Below, piece after piece: positions 1 to 37,995 of a stretch of DNA of 64,000 nucleotides. Origin of the DNA: Escherichia phage JLBYU43; the sequence record NC_105512.1; one strand, written 5' to 3'. Every line of letters begins with the position of its first letter. Position 1 is the first letter of the stretch. Below the pieces are notes generated by a model. That model ran no database searches. It was not told the DNA's origin and saw nothing but the letters and a program-made list of their open reading frames with translations. A program made the translations under genes and the position numbers.

Positions 1-124
1 GTGCAGTGGGTTGGGGGAGAATACTTAGTCTGCTAACCGCCACCCCCGTTACTATTACCTTGCTAACTGTTTCATCCTGTAACCATTATTTAATTACAGG
101 ATGAAACTATTTTATTTTTAATTG

Positions 125-859
125 TTAGGCAACTTTTAATTTCTCAATATATTGTTGCGGGCTGCAACTATATTCTGCGCGTTCTTCTTCGGTCATACCT
201 TCCCAGCATAATTTTAAACGGTCAGCTAGGAATTGATAATCATTATCATCGTCGAGAGATTCATCAATAAAGGTTTCACCTATCAATGCCACGCCGATTG
301 ATAGAATATCGTTAATGGCTTGCGCGTCCAGCGTTTTAAATCCGTATGATGCCGCCGCTGATAATACGCCTTTATGATCATCAATCATCGTAAAATCAGC
401 GTTCGGATATAACTGTTTAAACAGTTCAAAGTAATAGCTTTTGTACACTGCATCTTTACTATGATATATATCGCTAACCTTATCAGCTTTAAAATATTTA
501 TGCAGTGTATCACGGGAAAATACGCGAATATTGCTTTTATCACGACCGCGTAAACCTTGTTTGCGCAGGAAGTAATAATCTGATTTGCTCATTAGTCGAG
601 CGGTACAAATAATGTTTAAAGTATTTGCGTCATTCATGCACTGGCGCATGTATTCAACTAATGGTAATAATGTATCTTGCATTATTAAATGATGTTTGCA
701 GGCTTCATTTTTATATTTATTTAAATCTAAATTGCCCTCATTATCAAAGCAAGGCGCTACACGATGGAAAGAATTAATGATAGTGCCGTCTAAATCCCAA
801 ATCATGACGCGGGAAATATGCGGGAAGCTGCGGGAAATAGTCATAATAGCTTTATTCAT
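125..859 (-). CDS. dmp: 5'-deoxyribonucleotidase Dmp (HAD-like)
   Basis: 244 aa; N-terminal HAD motif I (WDLDGTI); size and position match my recollection of T5 Dmp; GGAG RBS. Confidence 0.8.
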   Translation of the reverse strand: MNKAIMTISRSFPHISRVMIWDLDGTIINSFHRVAPCFDNEGNLDLNKYKNEACKHHLIMQDTLLPLVEYMRQCMNDANTLNIICTARLMSKSDYYFLRKQGLRGRDKSNIRVFSRDTLHKYFKADKVSDIYHSKDAVYKSYYFELFKQLYPNADFTMIDDHKGVLSAAASYGFKTLDAQAINDILSIGVALIGETFIDESLDDDNDYQFLADRLKLCWEGMTEEERAEYSCSPQQYIEKLKVA

Positions 860-938
860 TTGTTACGTTCTCCATTTAAGGGATTAGATTAATTCAGCAT
901 TACCCGCTATTTATAAGCGGGTAATAATAAATTAACTA

Positions 939-1331
939 TTAAAGACCAAAAGCAAGAGCATCGGCGATAAAACTAATATCCTCGCCGGATACACTGGAAC
1001 GAATGCCAGCGCAGGTGTATACCTTTGCACTGGTCAATTGATCATCAAGGCAGGCGAGGCAAGGCGCGACTACTGCAAAAGCTAAACCGGATTTTACGGC
1101 GTCGATGATAATCGTTTCTTGTTTCATCGTGTCAACATAAACACCTTTTGCTTTAATATGGCTTGTTAGTTTGCCTTGCATATATGCAAACGTTGTTACC
1201 TGTAGCGCCTCGTTAAAGTCTAGCAGTTCATCAATAATATGACCCGATTCAACGTGATAACGCTCGCCATTAGAATAAACCAGAACAATGGAAGATTGAG
1301 CGCGATCGAATGGAATATTTTGCTTTTTCAT
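939..1331 (-). CDS. hypothetical pre-early protein
   Basis: 130-aa ORF with the conserved TAATCCCTTAA-GGAG leader upstream. Confidence 0.55.
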   Translation of the reverse strand: MKKQNIPFDRAQSSIVLVYSNGERYHVESGHIIDELLDFNEALQVTTFAYMQGKLTSHIKAKGVYVDTMKQETIIIDAVKSGLAFAVVAPCLACLDDQLTSAKVYTCAGIRSSVSGEDISFIADALAFGL

Positions 1332-1368
1332 AGTTATAAAACTCCAGATTATTTAATAAGGGATTAAT

Positions 1369-1659
1369 TTATTTAATTTCAATACTAGCTGAATGGTTAG
1401 TTAATTCAACTGGTACATTAAATGATTCTTGTGAAAGGGTGTAACAATCAATAGTGATAAGAGAATCACAACCGATAATTATTACCCCATTATAGGCCAT
1501 TACTATAAAATCCCCTTTCCTGATTGGGTAATCGGGATAATCGTAACAATCAGAGCAAGCGCGGTAAACATGGTTATTTAAATATGCGTCACTGATTGGA
1601 ATATCAGATAATAAAAGGGATTTAGGCGAAAAGTCATTAATAGGTAGTACAATATTCAT
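1369..1659 (-). CDS. hypothetical pre-early protein
   Basis: 96-aa ORF in the leftward pre-early gene array. Confidence 0.5.
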   Translation of the reverse strand: MNIVLPINDFSPKSLLLSDIPISDAYLNNHVYRACSDCYDYPDYPIRKGDFIVMAYNGVIIIGCDSLITIDCYTLSQESFNVPVELTNHSASIEIK

Positions 1660-1716
1660 TTGATTAACCTTTTATTAATGGCGGTATATTTCAACCGCTA
1701 GGATGTTAATTAGTTA

Positions 1717-3387
1717 TTATGCAAAGAATTTTCCATTCTTAAAGTCAATCAAAGTACGTTGCCCGTTTGCATATGTAATTAAATGCGTTTGCGTCCAGCT
1801 TGACGCGCCAACGTTGTAACCCATATCCAGACTACCAGCAACGCCCGCGGTATATACGCCACCGTAAATGCTTGCCGTATGCGTATGCCCCGTGTTTAAC
1901 TTGCCCAATTTCTTAAATTGCTTAGGATTACCACGGCTGCCGTTAATGCCGTTGTGACCATGTACGCCGCATTCAATGCCTGCAATCTTGAAAGATTGAT
2001 CAGTGGTCAGGAAAATGGCGTTAAATTCACAACCTGCAACATTACGCAAGGCATAATCTAGCACGTTAAACGTTTCGTCGTGTTCACCGATTGCCGCGTA
2101 AATAGCCGCATTCAGGCGGTGATATATTTCCGCGTTTGCGGGATCGTCCTTAATGTTAGCATTACGATCATCAAGCCAACGGGATAGCGCCAAATCGTGA
2201 TTCGATTCGACAATGATCGTTTGACTAAAATCACGTTCCATCGATTCCAGCACGCGCCCCGTATCGATAAGATCATCCAGAACTTTATCACGTCCGGCGG
2301 CATACTGTTTTGCTAGGAATACACCGGATGCGCGGTTATGATGATTGCGGGATGTAAAATCATGCACGTCATGCACAAACTGATATTTTGGTTTAAGAAT
2401 ATCCACAAGCCCATAAGTATCACCATGCCCCCAAGATGCGGCGGCGCACTCTTCATCTAATTTTTCGGCGTGAATATCACCATACTGCAAGCCTAAAACA
2501 TGCCCCGATGTCTCATAGCATCCGGCAGGAGTAGCGCACACATTCAGATCATAAAATACCCCGCTTTCGTCCATCGTTTCGAGCTGGCGTACAAAAAATT
2601 CGCCGTCGTCGTCAAATTCTACCAGCAAAGCGCCGTAATTATGCAGCGCCTCAGCTTTTTGACCTGCTTTCTGCTGAATATAGTTTTTAAGTGTAGCCGT
2701 TCCGGTGGAGTACATACGGCGCACTACTTCACCTTTTAACGCTGGCACACTTTCAGCGGTAATTTTTGCGTGACCAATTGCCAGCCCTTCAATATTTAAA
2801 GCGGTGGCAGTTTCTGCGAATCCTGAAAGCGGGTAGTCTGCCGTTGGTAATACGTTAATTTCAGCCATGAAAGCAAAACGGCGATTGTTTAAAAATACAT
2901 TTTTCTCGCAGATATATTTATCAAATGCGGAGTCATATTTGATTTTTTCGCCGCCTTCCCCGTTCTGGAAGCCGTTTTTATTATAAATATACTTAGAAAC
3001 AAGCAAATCGGCACCGATATATTCAGCGAATTTTTCCAGACTTGCTAAAAAGTTTTTATGCGGGAAAGTATTATTCTGAATCGACGTAATAATAAAACGT
3101 TTACCCTGTTTTACTTCCCATTGCTCAACCGTACTAGAAACAATCCCAGCCGCTTCGGGGCGCTCGTCGTTTTTAATGGCTTTTGCTACTTTTGCCGCTT
3201 TCGGTTTAGCTGGTTTGTTTGCTTCCAGCCAATCACAAATGGCGGTAGAATGTTTCGTTGTATCGTAGACTGCTTTTGATATATCGTCGCAGACCTCCAG
3301 TTTAGTAGCGCGCAGACGTTTACCATAAAAATTAAAGTCAGCGGCCATTTTCAGGATAACGGTTTGTTTTTCTGCGGAAATAATCAT
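1717..3387 (-). CDS. A1: A1 protein, metallophosphoesterase-like
   Basis: 556 aa, the size I recall for T5 A1; calcineurin-like motifs GDIH and SNHD; conserved leader and GGAG RBS. Confidence 0.8.
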   Translation of the reverse strand: MIISAEKQTVILKMAADFNFYGKRLRATKLEVCDDISKAVYDTTKHSTAICDWLEANKPAKPKAAKVAKAIKNDERPEAAGIVSSTVEQWEVKQGKRFIITSIQNNTFPHKNFLASLEKFAEYIGADLLVSKYIYNKNGFQNGEGGEKIKYDSAFDKYICEKNVFLNNRRFAFMAEINVLPTADYPLSGFAETATALNIEGLAIGHAKITAESVPALKGEVVRRMYSTGTATLKNYIQQKAGQKAEALHNYGALLVEFDDDGEFFVRQLETMDESGVFYDLNVCATPAGCYETSGHVLGLQYGDIHAEKLDEECAAASWGHGDTYGLVDILKPKYQFVHDVHDFTSRNHHNRASGVFLAKQYAAGRDKVLDDLIDTGRVLESMERDFSQTIIVESNHDLALSRWLDDRNANIKDDPANAEIYHRLNAAIYAAIGEHDETFNVLDYALRNVAGCEFNAIFLTTDQSFKIAGIECGVHGHNGINGSRGNPKQFKKLGKLNTGHTHTASIYGGVYTAGVAGSLDMGYNVGASSWTQTHLITYANGQRTLIDFKNGKFFA

Positions 3388-3478
3388 AGTAATAAAACTC
3401 CATTAAAGGGATTAGATTAATAATGGCAATATTGCCAAATATAACGCCTCAAATAATAGGCGTTATAATTTGCAATAT

Positions 3479-3676
3479 TTAACTAATAGGCATCAGGCTA
3501 GAACTAACACCACAAACAACGGCGGCAATAAAACAAAGTAAGCCTAACCGCTTTGCTAACTTAGATTTGCGTTTAAAATAATACGAATCTAGATCATTTT
3601 GAAAATAAGTGAACAATAATGAGGCCGCCATAATAAACAAGCCTAGAATCAAAGATTCAGTAGGGAAGAAAATCAT
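3479..3676 (-). CDS. small membrane protein
   Basis: 65 aa, two hydrophobic helices, conserved pre-early leader. Confidence 0.45.
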   Translation of the reverse strand: MIFFPTESLILGLFIMAASLLFTYFQNDLDSYYFKRKSKLAKRLGLLCFIAAVVCGVSSSLMPIS

Positions 3677-3732
3677 TTTTAAAACTCCTGATTTAAGGGA
3701 AATTAGTGGGGAGTATTCCCCACTAATTAAAT

Positions 3733-4140
3733 TTATTCACCTGCGGCCTGTTTTACTTCATCGGCAACGCCTAACAATTGCGCCACGGCTTCCAGCGTTT
3801 CAAGTTTTGCACTTTCCAGCGATGCCAGATCATCGGCGTCTTTGATAATGCCGGAATCGATAGCATGTTTAGCGATAACGCGCACATAGTGAGCTTTACG
3901 CACAGAGCTACCGCCGCCAACTTTACGCGGCTTATCGCTTTTTTGATAGGCTTTTGCACTGGTCAATTTTGACCGAACGGATACGGGAGAAGCCGCGCCT
4001 ACTGCTTTTGCAATCTCTTTTAAACCGTCGCTATTTGCGAAATCTAAACCGTTTTCATTGATTAACTGCTGGTACATAGAAACAGCTTTCTGAGTGTTTT
4101 CTTCGTTCCATGCGAATTTTGCGGTTTTTGCGTTAGTCAT
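3733..4140 (-). CDS. A2: A2-like DNA-binding protein
   Basis: 135 aa directly upstream of A1 with an HTH-like segment; the A2 assignment rests on size and position. Confidence 0.6.
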   Translation of the reverse strand: MTNAKTAKFAWNEENTQKAVSMYQQLINENGLDFANSDGLKEIAKAVGAASPVSVRSKLTSAKAYQKSDKPRKVGGGSSVRKAHYVRVIAKHAIDSGIIKDADDLASLESAKLETLEAVAQLLGVADEVKQAAGE

Positions 4141-4240
4141 GGTAAAAACTCCTATTAGTTTAATTTAAGGGATTAAATGATTAACTAATGTTAATCGTTA
4201 TATGCCCCGAACTACTGGGGCATATAAAGTTAACACTAAA

Positions 4241-4492
4241 TTATAAAACAGCTTCCCACTTTTCGTTACGTTGAACAACCTTTACAACGTCGCCAGATTT
4301 AACGCGAACGTTATAAATTGGCTTGCCGTTGTTACTGCGTTCCGTTTCAGCGTATACCGCTTCGATTGTATCGAACGGCATAAGCGCCGCACCTTTAATA
4401 CGTTCGGCTTTTCCGGTTAATTCATCCATTTTAGTAACGAAAGGAATGAAGACGGATTGACCAACTTTCGGCGCGGTAATAACGTTTTGCAT
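4241..4492 (-). CDS. hypothetical pre-early protein
   Basis: 83-aa ORF with GGAG RBS; a 10-bp stem / GAAA loop hairpin lies upstream at ~4527-4552. Confidence 0.5.
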   Translation of the reverse strand: MQNVITAPKVGQSVFIPFVTKMDELTGKAERIKGAALMPFDTIEAVYAETERSNNGKPIYNVRVKSGDVVKVVQRNEKWEAVL

Positions 4493-4719
4493 AGTATAAA
4501 CTCCTAGTTATTTGGGGATTGTTCCGCATTACCTGCTAGAAAGTAGCAGGTAATAAGTAACAATCCGCTCGCCAATATAATAAAGTTAAAGAACTCCACG
4601 TAGGCCGCTATATCCCAGTTAGGGGGCGGGATGCATTATGGTAAGCACCGACCGTCAAATTGTATCAAGTTATCGCTCTTGTCGAACTGGGTATATCTTA
4701 AAGCCTATCGGCTAGGGTG

Positions 4720-4923
4720 TCAAACTGTTTTTTGCAGTTTTTTATGATTTTCTTTCAGGTCAATCATAATGTTTCGCCAGATCATTTCTAAACCTTGCTG
4801 GCGACCTTTCTTGTACTGCTTGAATCGGTATTTTACCGATCTTTGCGCTACGGTCAACAAATTTTTTGTTTTGCTATCTAGTGCCTTGCTAGGCTTGCCA
4901 GTGATCAATAAAGTTTGTTTCAT
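4720..4923 (-). CDS. small basic protein inside an inverted-repeat-flanked segment
   Basis: 67-aa Lys/Arg-rich ORF bracketed by perfect 25-bp inverted repeats (4688-4712 / 4956-4980). Confidence 0.3.
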   Translation of the reverse strand: MKQTLLITGKPSKALDSKTKNLLTVAQRSVKYRFKQYKKGRQQGLEMIWRNIMIDLKENHKKLQKTV

Positions 4924-5492
4924 ATCGTCGATTCCTTATAGTAGATAAGTTTACCGCCGATAGGCTTTAAGATATACCCAATTTTTAAAGAGCGCGGCGG
5001 TAAACTTCCCGCCGTGTAGTTCGTCATTGCCGCCCTACGAGATAAATAATAGGGGATTCCCGAAAATGGCGCAACCTTATTTTTGTAAAGAAACGTAAAG
5101 ACACGATTCACCGCACCACGTCCGGCGACGGCCTAAAATTAAAAGAAACGGGCGCGCAAATACCACAAAACATAGCAGATAAGCAAGTAATTTTTTCATT
5201 TATATTTGCTTTGCCCTAATTGACAAAATCCAAAAAGCTCATGGCAGCGATAAACGGCTTATCCCTTTATGATTGGATGGCTAAAAACTTTATTGCGTTC
5301 TGGAGCGTTTTCTCACTGCTGCCCTTATTATAATAAAGCCTTGTGTACGCTTACAGGACGCTAGAAATAGAAAACGCGCGGCTATCATAAAATTAGACGC
5401 TAGGCAAGGAAAATAAAAAAGTAAAATAATCTTTGCCCCTAGAAAGAAAATACCTTTATCATTCTTCTACCGATTAACGAGGAGGCCAACAA

Positions 5493-5819
5493 ATGCGGCT
5501 ATATAAACCAGATAACGCAACCGTCTTAAAAGGTGCACTGCGTAACCTGCTGGATGGTAGCAGAACAACCAGCATCCGGCATTTTGTTTTCAATTTTGAA
5601 ACTATTCATCAAAACTTTTTTGATGAATATGACGCTCATAATATGAATAGTTTTCTACCGTTATATAAACAAGGGGCAACGCTTGTTTTGTATAATCAGG
5701 ATTATCAATTGCTCACTAGTCGGGGGCCGGATACTGATTTCATAATCGTAAAAGGCAACACAGTAAAAGCCTATGATACTGGGGCGGGCTTAGAAGTTTT
5801 TTTCAATAGAAAACTATGA
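5493..5819 (+). CDS. hypothetical protein
   Basis: 108-aa ORF, strong GAGGAGG RBS. Confidence 0.55.
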   Translation: MRLYKPDNATVLKGALRNLLDGSRTTSIRHFVFNFETIHQNFFDEYDAHNMNSFLPLYKQGATLVLYNQDYQLLTSRGPDTDFIIVKGNTVKAYDTGAGLEVFFNRKL

Positions 5820-6129
5820 AGCCAATGATAATGATCTTTATGACGTAGAAAATTTTCTTGATTCATTTTGGCGTTATTTATCAGTTGGCTGGAATCGGTC
5901 GGATTATGACGGGTATTGTTTTGCGGCTATAATGGCCTTCGATGATAACGGTAATTTTTTGCTACCGTCGGAACTATGCCCGTATGTTTATAATGATCTG
6001 ATACAGGAGGCCGGTTTTACTTTCTGGAAAGATGAGGATCAGATTATTAACAGTATAGAAAAACATGCTGTAAATTCTAACACTCAAAGCGTTATCACTC
6101 AAACTACTGAAAATAAAGGAAAAAACACT

Positions 6130-6486
6130 ATGACCAAGATCGCTAACATCGTTGCCGCCAATAAGTCTGCCGTTGTAAACGCTGCAAAACTGGAAGCGGG
6201 TAAAATTGCACTAACTCAAATCACGAAAGTAGCGGCTAAAAAAGCACCGTTCATGATCAAAGGTTATATCGATACGCCGATTGGTCGCGTAGTAATCGCT
6301 AACCTGCTGAGTGTAGTGGTTGACCAGTACGCCCCTAACAACCAAAAAGCGAAAGCGGTAGCAGGCGCGGCTATGGAAGCGGCAATGCTGGAAATGGTAC
6401 AGAGTTTCAATATTGCTGAAATGATCGATGAAATGGTAAAAGGTATTGACATTTCAACCTTTACCCAAAATGCTGAAAGCGAGTAA
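6130..6486 (+). CDS. hypothetical protein
   Basis: in-frame ATG with an AAGGA RBS inside track ORF 5932-6486; start uncertain. Confidence 0.4.
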   Translation: MTKIANIVAANKSAVVNAAKLEAGKIALTQITKVAAKKAPFMIKGYIDTPIGRVVIANLLSVVVDQYAPNNQKAKAVAGAAMEAAMLEMVQSFNIAEMIDEMVKGIDISTFTQNAESE

Positions 6487-6605
6487 TAATTAGTCTAATG
6501 TAAAGTTTTGTAAAGGTCGCCTATTATGGCGGCCTTTTTTGTTATAATGCCTTTACACCGAAACGGTGGATTGAAAATTTTCCCTGATTTCTAGGAGGCG
6601 TTAAA

Positions 6606-6833
6606 ATGGTACATTCATCATCTTCTGCAATTTTTAATGGTATGGAATGGGTATCCGTTCCCGCTATTATCAGCGTTATGGTTTCTGAATTTGGGATTGG
6701 TAAAACTTATGTTACCATTCAGGAGCTTTACGACAATGACAAGATTGATCAGCAAACAGCCGGATTTTTGCTGGATGAATTGAAAGCTAACTACTGCACC
6801 AAAAAGCAAGCGGTAAAAATTGTTTTAATGTAA
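6606..6833 (+). CDS. hypothetical protein
   Basis: 75 aa, AGGAGG RBS. Confidence 0.5.
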   Translation: MVHSSSSAIFNGMEWVSVPAIISVMVSEFGIGKTYVTIQELYDNDKIDQQTAGFLLDELKANYCTKKQAVKIVLM

Positions 6834-6879
6834 TTATTAAAGGGGATAATATATCCCCTAATTTCTAGGAGCTAATGAA

Positions 6880-7062
6880 ATGGTTATTTTTCGATCTATT
6901 CTGGCTAGTATCTTGGGCGCTATTTTATCGCTGTTTGTAATAGCTTTCGGTATTCAGGATTCCTATTGCGGTTTGGTAAACACAAAACCTATGGTTATTA
7001 TTGGAGCAGGTATCGCTGTATTTTCTTATCTGCTGGGCTGCATGACTAGTAAAGGAGAATAA
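6880..7062 (+). CDS. small membrane protein
   Basis: 60 aa, hydrophobic, AGGAG RBS. Confidence 0.5.
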   Translation: MVIFRSILASILGAILSLFVIAFGIQDSYCGLVNTKPMVIIGAGIAVFSYLLGCMTSKGE

Positions 7063-7064
7063 AA

Positions 7065-7277
7065 ATGATCCGCAACGTTTCTCTTGCACGTTCGAAAGGC
7101 TTTAAGCTGGTGGATGCTAACACGTTCGAGCGGGAAGATTGTAAAATCGAATATGTAGCACGTAATAAAAATGCCTTTCGTGTTACCGAGAAAAAATTTG
7201 ATAAGCGCGGCAACGTGATCCTTGAAACGGTTAGGCACTTTGCCACCTTTTACGCTGCATTTCGTGGGGTACTATGA
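7065..7277 (+). CDS. hypothetical protein
   Basis: 70 aa, AAGGAGA RBS. Confidence 0.45.
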   Translation: MIRNVSLARSKGFKLVDANTFEREDCKIEYVARNKNAFRVTEKKFDKRGNVILETVRHFATFYAAFRGVL

Positions 7278-7400
7278 AAAGCGTTATTGTTGTTCTCCTT
7301 GCAATGGCTGGCGGTTTTATCGCCACCTTATTTAAGAATGATCCCACTTCGTTGGGGATCTTTATGTTATTATCTGGCTATCTGATCGGGAGGTTATAAA

Positions 7401-7745
7401 ATGGTTATTTATGAGGGCAATCGTTTTGTTGCTAACTGCCGCCCGGCATTGTTAGCAAACTATTTGAACCAGCTTTCGCCAGCTTATAAGGGCGTTATTA
7501 ATATTTATGAGGGCAAGGCGCATTATAAAATTAATGCGGTCGTTGCCCGTGAACTAGCGTTTCAATTTTTAACCTTTGCAGCTTGCGACGTTCAGGTTAT
7601 GGGTGAGGCATTAATCGCAGAAAATGAAGATGATTTTATTAATATTTTTCGCAAGATATGCACCGAGCGCCTGATAATGAAAGGCGCATATATTCAATCC
7701 ACGGCTGATAGTATTGAAACAGCGTTTCGAAAAATAGGTAAATAA
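7401..7745 (+). CDS. hypothetical protein
   Basis: 114 aa, GGGAGG RBS. Confidence 0.5.
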   Translation: MVIYEGNRFVANCRPALLANYLNQLSPAYKGVINIYEGKAHYKINAVVARELAFQFLTFAACDVQVMGEALIAENEDDFINIFRKICTERLIMKGAYIQSTADSIETAFRKIGK

Positions 7746-8018
7746 TATGGCTGTTTATATTGCTTTGCTAGGATATGCGCTATCCCTTATTGCTGGTATG
7801 GTTACTTATAACATGATCGGCAATATTGTGTTACCCCTTGTTGTCTGCACTATCTTAGGTCAGTTTTGCGGAATGTTCGTTATGTATAAATTAATGCAAG
7901 GAAAATAATACTAATGAAACTATATATTTTCGTTGGTAATGCTGAGGCAGCTAATGATTCCGCTGGTGGCGGTAACGTTCGCCACTATTGGCAAAAATAT
8001 ATTTACTAGGGCGTTATT

Positions 8019-8222
8019 ATGAGCAATAAAATTGTTGTAACCAAAACTACTACGATGGTAGACGTTTTCTACGTGCCCGATACGCCGGAAAACCGACAAG
8101 CGGTTGAGCGTGGGGAGTATGATAAAGTGATTTATGATCACGATGGTTATTATCAGTATTTAGTGGATTCATATGGGGAGGAGGAAAAAATCACGCATCG
8201 ACTACCAGAGGAGGATTTATGA
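8019..8222 (+). CDS. hypothetical acidic protein
   Basis: 67-aa ORF. Confidence 0.45.
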   Translation: MSNKIVVTKTTTMVDVFYVPDTPENRQAVERGEYDKVIYDHDGYYQYLVDSYGEEEKITHRLPEEDL

Positions 8223-8375
8223 AACGATGGTTTAATCACTGGTATAAACGGTTTTTAGTACGCCGTCGCAAGTCTAGATATCAAGATGAGTGGCGGGAGT
8301 GGGCAAAGCGTAACGATTGCCCACTACTATAATAATCACGGGGCGCAACTCTCAGGGAGTGCCCCCGTTTCTCAA

Positions 8376-29787: not shown

Positions 29788-30255
29788 AATTGAAAACTCG
29801 CAGTGTTAGCGAAACCATCCTCAAATAGCATTTTCTAGAATACTAATCAAGTTATCTCCTATTGCACGCAGCTCAAGACGAGTACGAATTTTCAATTGTG
29901 GCGGCTCTCCGAAACTCATCACACTAACAACTAGTTGATTACACCTGGATTCTCGCCCAGGAAATTCTCTAGAAAGGCGCACCGTTACACTTTGAGCCAT
30001 TGAATGGGATGGTCTCTCATCCCTACTAACTACTTGATCCTTACGATCCGTCGGTTAGCACGAGCAGCGACCCTTCATATATTGTATAGTGCTCAGAAGG
30101 TCATTAGAAGCACTTATCAAGAAGCAGAAGGACTTGAACCTTCACGAGATAGACCATTTATCTCAGCCTCGTTTTCGGGTATCTTATGAGGAGTGGATGT
30201 TCCCCTTACGCCCTTTAGGAAGCCCCGTCTACCGATTCCGGCATACTTCAAGATT

Positions 30256-30350
30256 TGGAGGTAGGTAAGGGGATCGAACCCTTACACCGTATCACTACGA
30301 TCAACCGATTTCAAGTCGGAGTCCAGCGCCAGCCATTGGATTGACCTACC
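30256..30350 (-). tRNA. tRNA-Ser (UGA), long variable arm
   Basis: perfect acceptor GGTAGGT/ACCTACC, CCA encoded, loop CTTGAAA, 95 nt. Confidence 0.55.
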
Positions 30351-30362
30351 GTATAAATTGTT

Positions 30363-31207: not shown

Positions 31208-31467
31208 AAATTCTTTAGTTTACTAAGGCTATTAGCTCGGTGTGCGTATTACCCTCAGACATTAGCCAGTAGAGGATAACCGCTCTTCACAAACCCGATA
31301 CACTATTCAGTTGCCGCTGAATCTAGTGGACTAATCTAGAACTTCTCCCGAGTCGTAGGGATTGTGCTTTTTGGCAGCCAGTCCTAGGTCGAGCTAATAC
31401 CTTAGTGAACTTTGATGAGGATTTCTCCTCATCAATTTATATAAATATTATAACAAGAAATTAAACA

Positions 31468-32803: not shown

Positions 32804-33119
32804 AATATTCTTTGTTAACTCACTTTATAAGATATATTATACAGAGAATTAAGTGAAATAGCAAATGAATTTTTAATAAATTTACTTATTGCGTAGGCCA
32901 CCTGGAGGGTTCAAGCCCCACGGCTGACAAAGAAGTTTGCGAGACTTCTCTTAAATGCCAGAATAGACCCGCCGATCTATCGGAACCTACATAATAAGTA
33001 AACTTTCGTTTACCTACACCTACCTGGTCGGGAGGATTTTCAGCGACTAGAACCGGCCGGAAACTCATCGCCTTGTTTACCCTGTAGTCCCACTATAAGT
33101 GACGCGACCTACAAAGATT

Positions 33120-33193
33120 TGGTGCGGTCGGAGGGAATCGAACCCTCAACTTCTGGTTGGCAACCAAAAATTATACCTTTTAACTACGAACGC
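33120..33193 (-). tRNA. tRNA-Gly (GCC)
   Basis: T-arm GAGGG-TTCGATT-CCCTC, loop TTGCCAA, CCA encoded. Confidence 0.5.
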
Positions 33194-33406
33194 ATAATGA
33201 GTCAATCTAGGTAGGACTTGAACCTACTATCACTTGTGCGGATTTACGAGAACCATTCTTTCACTCGAATCGAACGAGCTTCTACCCTCGGCAAGCTGGT
33301 GTCCCCTCTCCACCACGCTAGAATGATAATTAATGCCTGCTCCTTTGAATCAAGAAGTCCACCCCGGACTTTGGGTCTTTGCAGTACATCACGCTGCTCT
33401 GATGTT

Positions 33407-33483
33407 TGGTACACCCACTAGGACTTGAACCTAGAACCCTCCGCTTAAGAGGCGGTAGCTCTAACCAATTGAGCTATGGATGT
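33407..33483 (-). tRNA. tRNA-Lys (CUU)
   Basis: acceptor ACATCCA/TGGGTGT, loop CTCTTAA, CCA encoded. Confidence 0.5.
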
Positions 33484-33489
33484 ATAATT

Positions 33490-33542
33490 TGGCGGTACTA
33501 AGGGTAATCGAAACCCTACCTCTCCCGTGACAGGGGAGTACC
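33490..33542 (-). tRNA. compact tRNA-like element without D-arm (anticodon loop GUC, Asp-like)
   Basis: 53 nt: acceptor-like stem, hairpin CTCCC-CTGTCAC-GGGAG, T-arm AGGGT-TTCGATT-ACCCT, CCA encoded; no room for a D-arm. Confidence 0.3.
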
Positions 33543-33574
33543 ATTACCAAGCCAGCCCCGATCGCATAATTTAT

Positions 33575-37393: not shown

Positions 37394-37995
37394 TTTAGGT
37401 ATTTTTAAGAACTCTCGTAAAAGTCCTTAAAGATACCCAACGGTAGGTAGGGTCAGCCCCCTCAGATTAAGCTCTGCAGCCCTTCCGTCAGACAATATCT
37501 TCCAGTTTAAGTCAAGGTGACTTTGTGGTTATGTTCTCCGTATGTGAAGAACTCGGTTAGGCTTAGGTCATGACTCCCAGCCTACTGCTGCCGCTCAACA
37601 GGAATTATCGCGAATTACCTGTACTATTGGGCACCATTAGTGACATCTCTCATGTCAGCATTTCCCACTTTGTGGATAGCTTGAAAAACTACTCCGATAT
37701 GGAGAAAGAACTTCACTATCCTAGAAATACCTTCTAAAGTTCTTCTTTAGCCTGGACATAGTTAAATCGTAATAAAACTATTCAGCAGACTAGTTGGTTA
37801 GCCTGGAACCAACTACCGCGTGGTTTAGGCAGTGCGTAACTAACCTAGGAAGCTTTTACGTTAAAAGCATCAGTTATCCAGTTCTTACCGACCGTAGGAT
37901 TCGAACCTACATCTTCCACCAGTTACGGCTTGATAATACCAATTATACTAGGACGGCAGTGTTACTACATAAGTGATTTCCACACACCACTATTA

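What the first reader, a model, noticed from the sequence alone, without database searches (positions are those of the whole stretch)
33196..33406. Two overlapping T-arm-like motifs without acceptor stems or CCA
T-arm consensus hairpins at ~33211-33227 and ~33264-33280 lie in a 210-nt gap between bona fide tRNAs, but neither can be completed into a cloverleaf and neither has CCA. They look like tRNA gene remnants or part of a larger structured RNA.
Basis: seen in the sequence. Interest (0 to 1): 0.35.

Follow-up and report, generated by a model that had tools for sequence, protein, structure and literature searches.

The report
Phage T5-type tRNA-like RNA2 gene
The two T-arm-like hairpins belong to one 122-nt phage gene for a tRNA-shaped RNA (the little-known 'RNA2' of T5-like phages) whose anticodon loop is replaced by a highly conserved 55-nt folded domain; it is real and conserved in several groups of large phages, but its function is unknown.

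Summary
The window is a T5-like phage (Epseptimavirus) with its tRNA array on the minus strand. Both hairpins exist exactly where reported and are not chance. They are not tRNA remnants. They are two parts of one gene, window 33203-33324 (minus strand). It is 90% identical to 'rna2 / RNA2, tRNA-like RNA with unknown functions' in GenBank AJ604531.

Comparison of 13-31 homologs shows a full tRNA scaffold: acceptor stem, D arm, 5-bp anticodon stem and T arm (33211-33227). The anticodon loop is replaced by a 55-nt domain. That domain holds the second T-loop hairpin (33264-33278), two further covarying helices and a 14-nt invariant strand. About 96% of cells pair, and 24-26 pairs show changes on both sides.

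Standard tRNA finders and Rfam miss it. Some relatives annotate a 56-aa CDS here; it is spurious. The family also occurs in Acinetobacter T4-like phages, a marine phage and metagenomic contigs. It was not found in E. coli genomes or plasmids.

Function is not established. My best inference is a tRNA mimic, processed like a tRNA, that binds a tRNA-recognising factor.

The remaining 82 nt (33325-33406) form a separate conserved spacer element of unknown role.

The parts
33203..33325 (-). RNA2 gene: tRNA-shaped RNA, 122 nt from A33324 to G33203. C33325 at position -1 can pair with G33203.
   Evidence: 90.4% identity over 125 nt to rna2 of AJ604531. Covariance model R1 scores it 101 bits, E about 6e-20, and it is the only such hit in the window. 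-1:73 complementarity is seen in most lineages.
33318..33324 (-). Acceptor stem, 5' strand ATTCTAG (pairs with 33204-33210)
   Evidence: 7/7 pairs show changes on both sides among homologs; 92-94% of cells pair.
33204..33210 (-). Acceptor stem, 3' strand CTAGATT. G33203 is the discriminator or the 8th pair. No CCA is encoded here.
   Evidence: Relatives KEY/AAS21 and L085 encode CCA at this place.
33297..33315 (-). D arm: TGGTG-GAGAGGGGA-CACCA, a 5-bp stem with a G-rich loop
   Evidence: 5/5 pairs covary. A 1-nt length polymorphism in the loop is tolerated.
33292..33296 (-). 'Anticodon stem' Pv, 5' strand GCTTG (pairs with 33232-33236, CAAGT)
   Evidence: 5/5 pairs covary; 98% of cells pair. 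RNAalifold recovers it independently.
33237..33291 (-). 55-nt inserted domain that replaces the anticodon loop; the most conserved part of the RNA
   Evidence: Invariant columns are concentrated here. It is conserved between Demerecviridae, Acinetobacter Straboviridae and metagenomic phages.
33264..33278 (-).
   Evidence: 3 of 4 pairs covary (CG/GC/UA/AU); 100% of cells pair.
33284..33287 (-). Helix Pj, 5' strand GGGT (pairs with ATCC at 33240-33243)
   Evidence: The Y:R pair is C-G in 8 and U-A in 6 of 18 haplotypes.
33281..33282 (-). Helix Pk, 5' strand G-A (pairs with T33249-C33248)
   Evidence: The N:N pair is Watson-Crick in 18/18 haplotypes and uses all four pair types.
33250..33263 (-). 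Nearly invariant single strand TGAAAGAATGGTTC between T' and Pk
   Evidence: Nearly invariant across all homologs. Its pairing is unresolved.
33211..33227 (-).
   Evidence: 4 of 5 pairs covary.
33194..33202 (-). 9-nt 3' trailer ACTCATTAT between RNA2 and the +1 position of tRNA-Gly
   Evidence: Read from the sequence. Trimming and CCA addition are inferred.
33326..33406 (-). 'Module B': a separate ~81-nt conserved spacer element between tRNA-Lys and RNA2; role unknown
   Evidence: A discrete 80-82-nt unit, at least 96% identical in nearly all of the 132 phage records that hold it. In Klebsiella Sugarlandvirus it lies between a CCA-ending tRNA-like sequence and tRNA-Phe. Its fold is not exceptional, z = -0.40. 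One compensatory change is seen in the hairpin CTTCTT/AAGGAG in phage Eos. It matches no Rfam family and none of the annotated T5 RNAs.
33407..33483 (-). Flanking tRNA-Lys(CTT), upstream on the minus-strand transcript
33120..33193 (-). Flanking tRNA-Gly(GCC), downstream on the minus-strand transcript

Best explanation
Window 33203-33324 (minus strand) is one gene for the T5-group 'RNA2', a stable tRNA-shaped RNA that does not decode codons.

Shown:
- It has an acceptor stem of 7 bp (8 bp with the -1:73 pair), a 5-bp D arm with a G-rich loop, a 5-bp anticodon stem, a 4-nt variable loop and a canonical T arm.
- The 7-nt anticodon loop is replaced by a 55-nt domain that lengthens the anticodon arm. 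Its order is: internal loop, helix Pj (GGGY/RUCC), an A opposite an RUAA bulge, helix Pk (GN/NC), then a second T-loop hairpin flanked by the invariant strand UGAAAGAAUGGUUC.
- No promoter-like or terminator-like site was found on its strand between the flanking tRNA genes.

Inferred:
- It is made on the polycistronic tRNA transcript.
- RNase P cuts at or next to its 5' end. RNase P cleavage at tRNA-Gly +1 leaves a 9-nt trailer.
- Exonucleases trim that trailer, and the host CCA-adding enzyme completes the 3' end. Some relatives encode the CCA.

Inferred, about 0.5-0.6 likely: the scaffold gives processing, stability and a tRNA-like shape, and the invariant extended arm is the working part. 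It binds a conserved tRNA-recognising factor of the host or the phage, so the RNA acts as a mimic or decoy.

The most specific version, about 0.25-0.3 likely: it is a decoy or inhibitor for a tRNA-targeting immune nuclease, in line with the known anti-defence roles of other T5 tRNA-region genes.

The confidence given below (0.8) refers to identity, boundaries and fold, not to function.
For: Identity: 90.4% over 125 nt to rna2 ('tRNA-like RNA with unknown functions') of AJ604531, in the same strand context.

Fold: on the hand-registered alignment A2 (13 lineages), 94.9-96.5% of cells pair, against 62-63% in shuffles and 25-46% when partners are slid. 24-26 pairs change on both sides, and 0/500 shuffles reach the observed values. 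On the covariance-model alignment A4 (31 sequences), 95.8% pair and 24/29 pairs change on both sides. RNAalifold recovers the acceptor stem, Pv and the T arm on its own. The Pk N:N pair is Watson-Crick in 18/18 haplotypes with all four pair types. The Pj Y:R pair is C-G in 8 and U-A in 6 of 18.

Specificity: model R1 scores family members at 74-105 bits and ordinary tRNAs at 32 bits or less.

Transcription context: no promoter-like or terminator-like site on the minus strand within 33194-33406. CCA is encoded in KEY/AAS21 and in L085.

Restricted to phages: about 420-430 phage records hold it. There is no match in E. coli genomes or plasmids. Only one real hit appeared among representative genomes of 185,579 bacterial and archaeal species, on a 167-kb contig that looks like a phage.

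Anti-defence context: T5 tRNA-Lys neutralises PARIS, and T5 tRNA-Tyr counters retron Eco7 (PMC11464382).
Against: - I saw no expression, end-mapping or binding data. The GenBank label 'tRNA-like RNA' may itself be a prediction.
- A2 was registered by hand with the structure in mind, and A4 is fitted to the model, so both lean towards the structure.
- Single-sequence folding is no better than shuffles (z = -0.02).
- The Acinetobacter-phage subgroup has a weak, AU-rich acceptor stem and a reduced D arm, so a full tRNA shape is not universal.
- No conserved partner gene was found next to the RNA.
- No target of the proposed mimicry is identified.
Confidence: 0.8

Rival explanations
1. Translation-linked RNA: RNA2 is aminoacylated and acts on the ribosome, for example as a tmRNA-like rescue RNA or an unusual decoder.
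For: It has an intact acceptor stem, a T arm and a D loop. CCA is encoded in some lineages. A short ATG-GTT-CTC-GTA-AAT-CCG-CAC-AAG-TGA frame lies inside the domain. A loop-like stretch C-N-C-R-U-A-A resembles the anticodon loops of tRNAs that read ANN codons.
Against: - The acceptor sequence and the discriminator vary freely, and there is no G3:U70 or other conserved identity set.
- The internal frame differs in length and amino acids between lineages (read from the sequences).
- The hairpin that would present the anticodon-like loop has no compensatory support, and its 3' strand pairs instead in Pj, while its position 33 (N) and the adjacent C pair in Pk.
- Neither ARAGORN nor Rfam gives a tmRNA hit beyond a 17-nt T-arm fragment at 5.8 bits.
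- The acceptor stem is degenerate in Acinetobacter phages.
Confidence: 0.07
2. Cis-acting processing element: a tRNA-like 'punctuation' structure that only guides RNase P or RNase E cutting of the polycistronic tRNA transcript and has no function in trans.
For: It usually lies inside tRNA clusters and often abuts a tRNA within 0-10 nt.
Against: Punctuation needs only an acceptor/T-arm minihelix. Here the scaffold sequence drifts, while the 55-nt inner domain is almost invariant across virus families and keeps two extra covarying helices. In L037 it lies in a 10-kb stretch with no predicted tRNA.
Confidence: 0.1
3. A ligand-binding or catalytic RNA domain carried on a natural tRNA scaffold (aptamer, sensor or ribozyme).
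For: The domain is compact, has several junctions and near-invariant unpaired nucleotides, and includes a T-loop module, which is typical of tertiary-structured aptamers.
Against: Nothing in Rfam reaches even E = 10 across the domain. There is no adjacent regulated gene or expression platform, and no candidate ligand or cleavage site.
Confidence: 0.1
4. Decayed tRNA gene remnants.
For: Two T-arm motifs, no standard tRNA call and no CCA in this window.
Against: Compensatory changes maintain six or seven helices. The boundaries of conservation are sharp in different flanking contexts. The sequence is conserved from T5-like to T4-like phages.
Confidence: 0.01
5. A protein-coding gene: the 56-aa ORF at 33244-33414 (minus strand), annotated as a hypothetical protein in phages IrmaTschudi and GreteKellenberger.
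For: The ORF is open in this window and is annotated in some records.
Against: It starts with GTG inside the 3' end of tRNA-Lys. In most T5-like relatives a 1-nt indel in the D loop shifts the frame, a stop lies 2-4 codons upstream of RNA2, and no conserved start exists. Substitutions follow RNA pairing, not codon structure.
Confidence: 0.01

Closest known systems
RNA2 (gene rna2) of T5-like 'Bacteriophage 5', GenBank AJ604531; unannotated orthologs in T5 and several hundred T5-like genomes
   Same: Same gene: 90.4% identity over 125 nt, the same ends, the same strand and the same place in the tRNA region. Model R1 scores both above 99 bits.
   Different: Nothing essential. In this window the gene is flanked by tRNA-Lys plus module B upstream and by tRNA-Gly downstream, instead of an ORF and RNA IV. 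Its D loop is 1 nt longer.
Bacteriophage T4 species 1 and species 2 RNAs (rnaC, rnaD)
   Same: They are small stable RNAs of unknown role encoded in a phage tRNA cluster (PMC3014915). By eye, rnaC ends with a tRNA-like T arm.
   Different: There is no sequence or model similarity: R1 finds only ordinary tRNAs in the T4 region. The RNA2-like copies in Acinetobacter T4-like phages are a different gene from rnaC and rnaD.
Canonical tRNA (Rfam RF00005)
   Same: The acceptor stem, D arm, anticodon stem, variable loop and T arm are in tRNA order and have tRNA sizes. Ordinary tRNAs even match R1 end to end at 20-32 bits.
   Different: There is no 7-nt anticodon loop and no anticodon; 55 nt stand in their place. 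The D stem has 5 bp and an 8th acceptor pair is likely. It is not detected by Rfam or ARAGORN.
tmRNA and bacterial Y-RNA-like YrlA (other tRNA mimics)
   Same: In both, a tRNA-like module is combined with a non-tRNA functional module.
   Different: tmRNA (from established knowledge): the module sits between the acceptor strands and carries a conserved tag ORF and alanine identity. None of these is present here.

YrlA (from my own recollection, not tested): its 5' and 3' ends form the Ro-binding stem and the acceptor end is closed, which is the opposite topology. The only weak Rfam YrlA hit lies on tRNA-Lys, not on RNA2.
Engineered 'tRNA scaffold' RNAs (a foreign RNA inserted in place of the anticodon loop for stable expression)
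   Same: The same design principle appears to occur naturally: a structured RNA is grafted onto the anticodon stem of a tRNA body. The comparison rests on my own knowledge of the method.
   Different: This one is natural, conserved and of unknown function. The comparison is an analogy only.

Membership tests
T5-group RNA2 (AJ604531 rna2) | Sequence homology over the whole annotated RNA | tested here: met
   125-nt alignment, 90.4% identity, window 33325-33201.
T5-group RNA2 (AJ604531 rna2) | Shared secondary structure, scored by a family covariance model | tested here: met
   R1 scores it 101 bits, E about 6e-20. Ordinary tRNAs score 32 bits or less.
T5-group RNA2 (AJ604531 rna2) | Located in the tRNA gene region on the tRNA strand | tested here: met
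   It lies between tRNA-Lys and tRNA-Gly on the minus strand.
T5-group RNA2 (AJ604531 rna2) | Accumulates as a discrete RNA in infected cells | not testable with these tools
   No expression data were available.
Canonical tRNA (RF00005) | 7-bp acceptor stem, D arm with GG, 5-bp anticodon stem, T arm with a TTCRANY loop | tested here: met
   All four helices are present and covary.
Canonical tRNA (RF00005) | 7-nt anticodon loop with U33, an anticodon and a purine at position 37 | tested here: not met
   55 nt lie between the anticodon-stem strands. The ends of the insert do not form such a loop (read from the sequences).
Canonical tRNA (RF00005) | Reaches the Rfam gathering score or is detected by ARAGORN | tested here: not met
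   No tRNA hit at E up to 10 within 33196-33406. ARAGORN finds nothing, with or without the intron option at the default threshold.
Canonical tRNA (RF00005) | 3' CCA, encoded or added | tested here: inconclusive
   It is not encoded here (G-ACT) but is encoded in KEY/AAS21 and L085. Addition after transcription cannot be tested.
Intron-containing tRNA gene | Removing the insert restores a canonical anticodon loop; the insert is a group I intron or has a bulge-helix-bulge splice site | tested here: not met
   No register gives U33 plus a purine at 37 across the lineages (by eye). 55 nt is far below the size of group I introns, and Rfam gives no intron hit. ARAGORN -i finds nothing at its default threshold. 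Only a forced low-score model appears, and it contradicts the covarying helices.
tmRNA | Conserved internal tag reading frame that ends in a stop codon | tested here: not met
   The internal frame varies in length and residues between lineages (sequences).
tmRNA | G3:U70 alanine identity and detection by the tmRNA models | tested here: not met
   The 3:70 pair is UA, UG, CG, AU or GC. The only hit is a 17-nt T-arm fragment at 5.8 bits, and ARAGORN reports no tmRNA.
tRNA pseudogene / remnant | Substitutions accumulate without regard to pairing; no sharp conserved boundaries | tested here: not met
   24-26 pairs have compensatory changes. The conserved unit keeps sharp ends in at least four different flanking contexts.
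T4 rnaC / rnaD | Homology in sequence or structure to T4 species 1 or 2 RNA | tested here: not met
   R1 finds no RNA2-like match in T4 69000-76000, and BLAST gives no T4 hit.
Protein-coding gene (56-aa ORF) | Reading frame and start codon conserved among homologs | tested here: not met
   The frame is broken by a D-loop indel, and upstream stops are present in most relatives.

The most novel reading that the evidence does not exclude
RNA2 may define a widespread, phage-restricted class of natural 'tRNA-scaffolded' effector RNAs. In this reading the invariant extended anticodon arm, capped by a second T-loop 'elbow', specifically binds and neutralises a tRNA-directed host immunity or toxin enzyme, or re-programmes a tRNA-processing or tRNA-modifying enzyme. 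That would make it an RNA anti-defence factor hidden in phage tRNA arrays. It would also give a first function for the stable tRNA-like phage RNAs whose roles are, as far as I know, still unknown.
Probability: 0.25. Interest if true: 0.8.

Novelty: new member of a known kind. Interest (0 to 1): 0.5.

Why it matters
Since early work on these phages, T5 and T4 have been known to make small stable RNAs from their tRNA clusters. A 2010 review still lists the roles of the two T4 RNAs as unknown.

This work makes four points about one of these RNAs, T5 RNA2:
- Current annotation pipelines and Rfam miss it, and it is sometimes mis-called as a protein gene.
- Its architecture is well defined and supported by covariation: a tRNA body whose anticodon loop is replaced by a nearly invariant 55-nt domain containing a second T loop.
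- It is shared by unrelated large phages (T5-like, Acinetobacter T4-like, a marine phage and uncultured phages).
- It was not found in E. coli genomes or plasmids.

This gives a model that can be searched with, exact boundaries, and specific helices to mutate, so the function can now be tested directly. In practical terms, the gene should be annotated as an ncRNA, and the overlapping hypothetical CDS should be removed from T5-like genome records.

Tried and rejected
1. Standard tRNA or tmRNA gene: ARAGORN and Rfam (gathering threshold and E up to 10) give nothing except a 17-nt T-arm fragment.

2. tRNA with an intron: ARAGORN -i finds nothing at its default threshold. Only a forced low-score tRNA-Pro(agg) model appears, and it conflicts with the covarying helices. 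No splice register restores an anticodon loop.

3. My first model of the insert, a local hairpin 'Pa' (TTGC/GTAG), was dropped because it conflicts with the strongly covarying long-range stem Pv.

4. An anticodon-like hairpin 'Pi' (ATGG/CCGC) was dropped because it has no compensatory support and its 3' strand covaries with J1 instead, forming Pj.

5. tmRNA-like internal ORF: it is not conserved.

6. The 56-aa CDS: its frame is not conserved.

7. Homology to T4 rnaC or rnaD: none.

8. A host origin: no match in E. coli genomes or plasmids. A pattern scan of representative genomes of 185,579 bacterial and archaeal species gave one real hit, on a phage-like contig.

9. A conserved neighbouring protein gene as a partner: the ORFs around ten diverse copies share nothing obvious. 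The Pfam searches I had in mind for these ORFs were not run.

10. Thermodynamic folding: it is uninformative for RNA2 (z = -0.02), for the whole gap (z = 0.86) and for module B (z = -0.40).

11. Literature searches for T5 stable or tRNA-like RNAs, and for the invariant sequence itself, found nothing on RNA2.

12. The 16-mer scan of viral contigs returned mostly chance hits.

Full report
**Context.** The window carries 23 ARAGORN tRNA genes, all on the minus strand, between about 27.6 and 37.4 kb; Rfam confirms most of them. BLAST places the region in T5-like phages (Demerecviridae, Epseptimavirus). It is 100% identical over 33150-33450 to Escherichia phage GreteKellenberger, and 521 phage records match the surrounding kilobase. 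The finding concerns the 213-nt gap between tRNA-Gly(GCC) at 33120-33193 and tRNA-Lys(CTT) at 33407-33483.

**Checking the observation.**
- Read on the minus strand, the gap contains GTAGG-TTCAAGT-CCTAC at 33211-33227 and (G)CTCG-TTCGATT-CGAG(T) at 33263-33279.
- A scan for hairpins with a stem of at least 4 bp, a closing G-C pair and a TTCRANY loop finds 24 in the window, all on the minus strand. Twenty lie in tRNAs and four lie outside them. Shuffled sequence gives 0.47 per window.
- The two motifs are therefore real and not chance. They do not overlap.
- No standard model covers the gap. Neither ARAGORN nor Rfam at the gathering score finds anything. At E up to 10 the only Rfam match is a 17-nt tmRNA T-arm fragment at 5.8 bits.

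**Two separately conserved modules.** BLAST of the gap shows that it is a composite.
- Window ~33201-33325 is conserved on its own in T5 itself (AY587007, unannotated), in Erwinia phage KEY and in Serratia phage Slocum.
- Window 33326-33410 is conserved on its own, at about 96%, in Klebsiella Sugarlandvirus phages.

**Identity of the first module.**
- A BLAST search seeded with the Slocum copy hit GenBank AJ604531 ('Bacteriophage 5 tRNA gene region'). That record annotates the matching stretch as misc_RNA rna2, 'RNA2, tRNA-like RNA with unknown functions', 125 nt.
- The annotated RNA aligns to window 33325-33201 at 90.4% identity.
- The same record's RNA IV, RNA 2H, RNA1, RNA I, RNA III and RNA X also map to the window. 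Its RNA3 does not, and none of them matches 33326-33406.

**Homologs.** Exact and degenerate pattern scans and BLAST searches gave the following.
- Many T5-like copies that share sharp boundaries (…C|ATTCTAG…CTAGAWT|G AC…) in at least four different flanking contexts.
- Divergent copies:
  - Erwinia KEY and Pantoea AAS21;
  - Serratia Slocum;
  - a 164-kb IMG/VR contig (L037);
  - Paraglaciecola Antarctic GD virus 1 (L078);
  - Acinetobacter T4-like phages Acj9, 133, ZZ1/W16 and AB1I1T;
  - metagenomic contigs L084, L085, L090/L100, L091 and L095;
  - one 167-kb 'bacterium' contig that looks like an Acinetobacter-type phage (L103).
- No match in E. coli genomes or in plasmids.

**Structure: the scaffold.**
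- By eye, each homolog has a 7-bp acceptor stem, a D arm and a T arm.
- Each also has a 5-6-bp helix (Pv) that joins the segment just after the D arm to the segment just before a 2-6-nt variable loop (4 nt in the window). That is exactly where an anticodon stem sits.
- Pv differs in almost every lineage yet stays complementary: GCTTG/CAAGT, GCCTC/GAGGT, TCACT/AGTGA, CCGCA/TGCGG, ACTCCG/CGGAGT and so on.
- I registered 13 lineages by hand, padding with N so that MAFFT kept the register, and counted the pairs.
- 94.9% of cells pair, against 62% in shuffles and 25-45% when the partners are slid. 24 of 30 pairs change on both sides, and 0/500 shuffles reach the observed values.
- Pairs that covary: acceptor 7/7, D stem 5/5, Pv 5/5, internal T-loop hairpin 3/4, T arm 4/5.

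**Structure: the covariance model.**
- A model built from this alignment (R1) finds exactly one copy in the window: 33203-33324, minus strand, 101 bits, E about 6e-20.
- It scores all family members at 74-105 bits and ordinary tRNAs at 32 bits or less. Those tRNAs align end to end with the insert deleted, which shows that the scaffold is tRNA-like.
- It finds nothing RNA2-like in the T4 tRNA region.
- On the model-made alignment of 31 sequences, 95.8% of cells pair and 24/29 pairs change on both sides.
- RNAalifold recovers the acceptor stem, Pv and the T arm on its own.

**Structure: the 55-nt insert.**
- My first idea, an anticodon-like hairpin (ATGG/CCGC), had no compensatory support.
- Two other nested helices do have support:
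  - Pj pairs GGGY with RUCC. Its Y:R pair is C-G in 8 and U-A in 6 of 18 haplotypes.
  - Pk pairs G-N with N-C. Its N:N pair is Watson-Crick in 18/18 haplotypes and uses all four pair types.
- With these two helices, 96.5% of cells pair and 26/32 pairs change on both sides.
- The insert therefore extends the anticodon arm in this order: Pv; the internal loop CCGA/GCA; Pj; an A opposite an RUAA bulge; Pk; then the T-loop hairpin T' (33264-33278) with the nearly invariant strand UGAAAGAAUGGUUC (33263-33250).
- Position -1 is complementary to position 73 in most lineages (C-G, U-A or U·G). The acceptor stem may therefore have 8 bp, which agrees with the 5' end given in GenBank.
- Single-sequence folding adds nothing (z = -0.02).

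**What it is not.**
- Not a remnant: the compensatory changes exclude decay.
- Not an intron-containing tRNA: no register restores a U33/purine-37 loop, and 55 nt is too short for a group I intron. ARAGORN with introns allowed finds nothing at its default threshold. Only a forced low-score model appears, and it contradicts the covarying helices.
- Not tmRNA-like: the short internal ATG frame varies in length and residues between lineages, and there is no alanine identity pair.
- Not coding: the 56-aa ORF at 33244-33414, annotated in IrmaTschudi and GreteKellenberger, starts inside tRNA-Lys. In most relatives it is frame-shifted by a 1-nt D-loop indel, with stops 2-4 codons upstream of RNA2.

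**How it probably works.**
- Shown: the fold, the boundaries, the restriction to phages, the usual position inside tRNA clusters, and the absence of a promoter-like or terminator-like site on its strand within the gap. Where tRNA neighbours are known, the copy often lies 0-10 nt from one.
- Inferred from established tRNA biology:
  - It is transcribed as part of the polycistronic tRNA precursor.
  - RNase P cuts at its 5' end and at tRNA-Gly +1, which leaves the trailer ACUCAUUAU.
  - The trailer is trimmed by exonucleases and CCA is added. KEY/AAS21 and L085 encode the CCA.
- Why the inner arm looks like the working part:
  - The scaffold sequence drifts freely while the inner domain is almost invariant from T5-like to T4-like phages.
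  - The Acinetobacter subgroup keeps the domain although its acceptor stem and D arm have degenerated.
  - I therefore take the scaffold to supply processing, stability and shape, and the extended arm to do the work.
- My best guess at function is tRNA mimicry: binding of a conserved tRNA-recognising factor. This is about 0.5-0.6 likely.
- A more specific version is a decoy or inhibitor of a tRNA-directed defence nuclease, about 0.25-0.3 likely. It fits published anti-defence roles of T5 tRNAs (PARIS, retron Eco7; PMC11464382).
- No partner was identified, and the gene neighbourhoods of ten diverse copies share nothing obvious.

**The second module (33325/6-33406).**
- It is a discrete 80-82-nt unit present in 132 phage records, at least 96% identical in nearly all of them, in Epseptimavirus and in Klebsiella Sugarlandvirus.
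- In Sugarlandvirus it again lies between a CCA-ending tRNA-like sequence and a tRNA.
- Its fold is not exceptional (z = -0.40).
- The divergent copy in phage Eos carries one compensatory change in the hairpin CUUCUU/AAGGAG, which covers a Shine-Dalgarno-like AAGGAG.
- It matches neither Rfam nor any annotated T5 RNA. Its role is open.

**Comparison and novelty.**
- The gene is an ortholog of an RNA already annotated in one GenBank record, so the window holds a new member of a known kind.
- I found no paper that describes its structure or function. It is absent from Rfam and unannotated or mis-annotated in the related genome records I inspected.
- As far as I could find, two results are new: the covariation-supported architecture and the spread beyond T5-like phages.
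- T4 rnaC and rnaD are functional analogues only; their roles are also unknown (PMC3014915).

**Limits.**
- There are no expression data.
- A2 was registered by hand and A4 is fitted to the model.
- R1's E-values are rough, as the tool states.
- The pattern-based collection scans can miss divergent members.

Noticed in passing
window 33493-33559 (minus strand): ARAGORN misses a tRNA-Asp(GTC) with an atypical D region, and it scores below the Rfam gathering score (25.6 against 29 bits). Relatives annotate it as tRNA-Asp.
   Followed up: partly
window 32890-32990 (minus strand) and 32836-32864: This stretch is homologous to 'RNA IV, stable RNA with unknown functions' of AJ604531 (93% identity). 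It is followed by a strong promoter-like site, TTGCTA-17-TATAAT, that corresponds to the 'P13a-like' promoter annotated in phage S114.
   Followed up: partly
window 30115-30252 (minus strand): This is homologous to 'RNA1, tRNA-like RNA' (145 nt, 88% identity), with a T arm at 30127-30143. By eye it is another tRNA body with a long internal insertion, so T5-like phages seem to carry several such scaffolded RNAs.
   Followed up: partly
window ~30266-30355 (minus strand): Both ARAGORN and Rfam miss a likely tRNA-Ser(UGA). Its acceptor stem is GGTAGGT/ACCTACC plus CCA, its T arm lies at 30267-30283, and its anticodon loop reads CT-TGA-AA.
   Followed up: no
window 29789-29894, 29899-29998, 31287-31399, 37394-37530 (minus strand): These are homologs of the AJ604531 'stable RNAs' RNA III (95%), RNA I (only the two ends conserved), RNA 2H (first 113 of 172 nt) and RNA X (73%).
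   Followed up: no
L004 (Klebsiella phage K32PH164C1) ~1086-1175, minus strand: An unannotated sequence of about 90 nt looks tRNA-like. Its acceptor stem is GGGACTT/AAGTTCC plus A-CCA, it has a D arm, and its other arms are odd. It lies between tRNA-Lys and module B.
   Followed up: no
L034 (Acinetobacter phage W16) 1296-1526: A 76-aa CDS annotated 'RF-1 domain peptide chain release factor' lies 19 nt downstream of the RNA2-like copy. The usual GGQ motif appears to be replaced.
   Followed up: no
L084 (metagenome contig Ga0308158_10000004, 1.46 Mb) 1-8283: There are 47 tRNA genes in 8.3 kb, and an RNA2-like copy (6023-6138) follows tRNA-Gly(GCC) directly. At this contig size it is probably a bacterial tRNA array, and it is the only apparently non-phage home of the family that I saw.
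   Followed up: partly
L103 7053-7127; L085 4834-4910; L032 231-303: tRNAs with a CTA anticodon (amber-suppressor type, labelled 'Pyl') occur in the same tRNA clusters as RNA2-like copies. In L103 the two are immediately adjacent.
   Followed up: no
window 33409-33483 and 33122-33193 (plus strand): The sub-threshold Rfam 'Plastid-ycf2 5'UTR' matches are simply the antisense strands of tRNA-Lys and tRNA-Gly. They are artefacts.
   Followed up: yes
L001 (IrmaTschudi) 1235-1816 compared with the window: Several relatives carry an HNH homing-endonuclease gene inserted next to tRNA-Asp, and this window lacks it. The tRNA region is a mosaic of such insertions and of swapped spacers.
   Followed up: no
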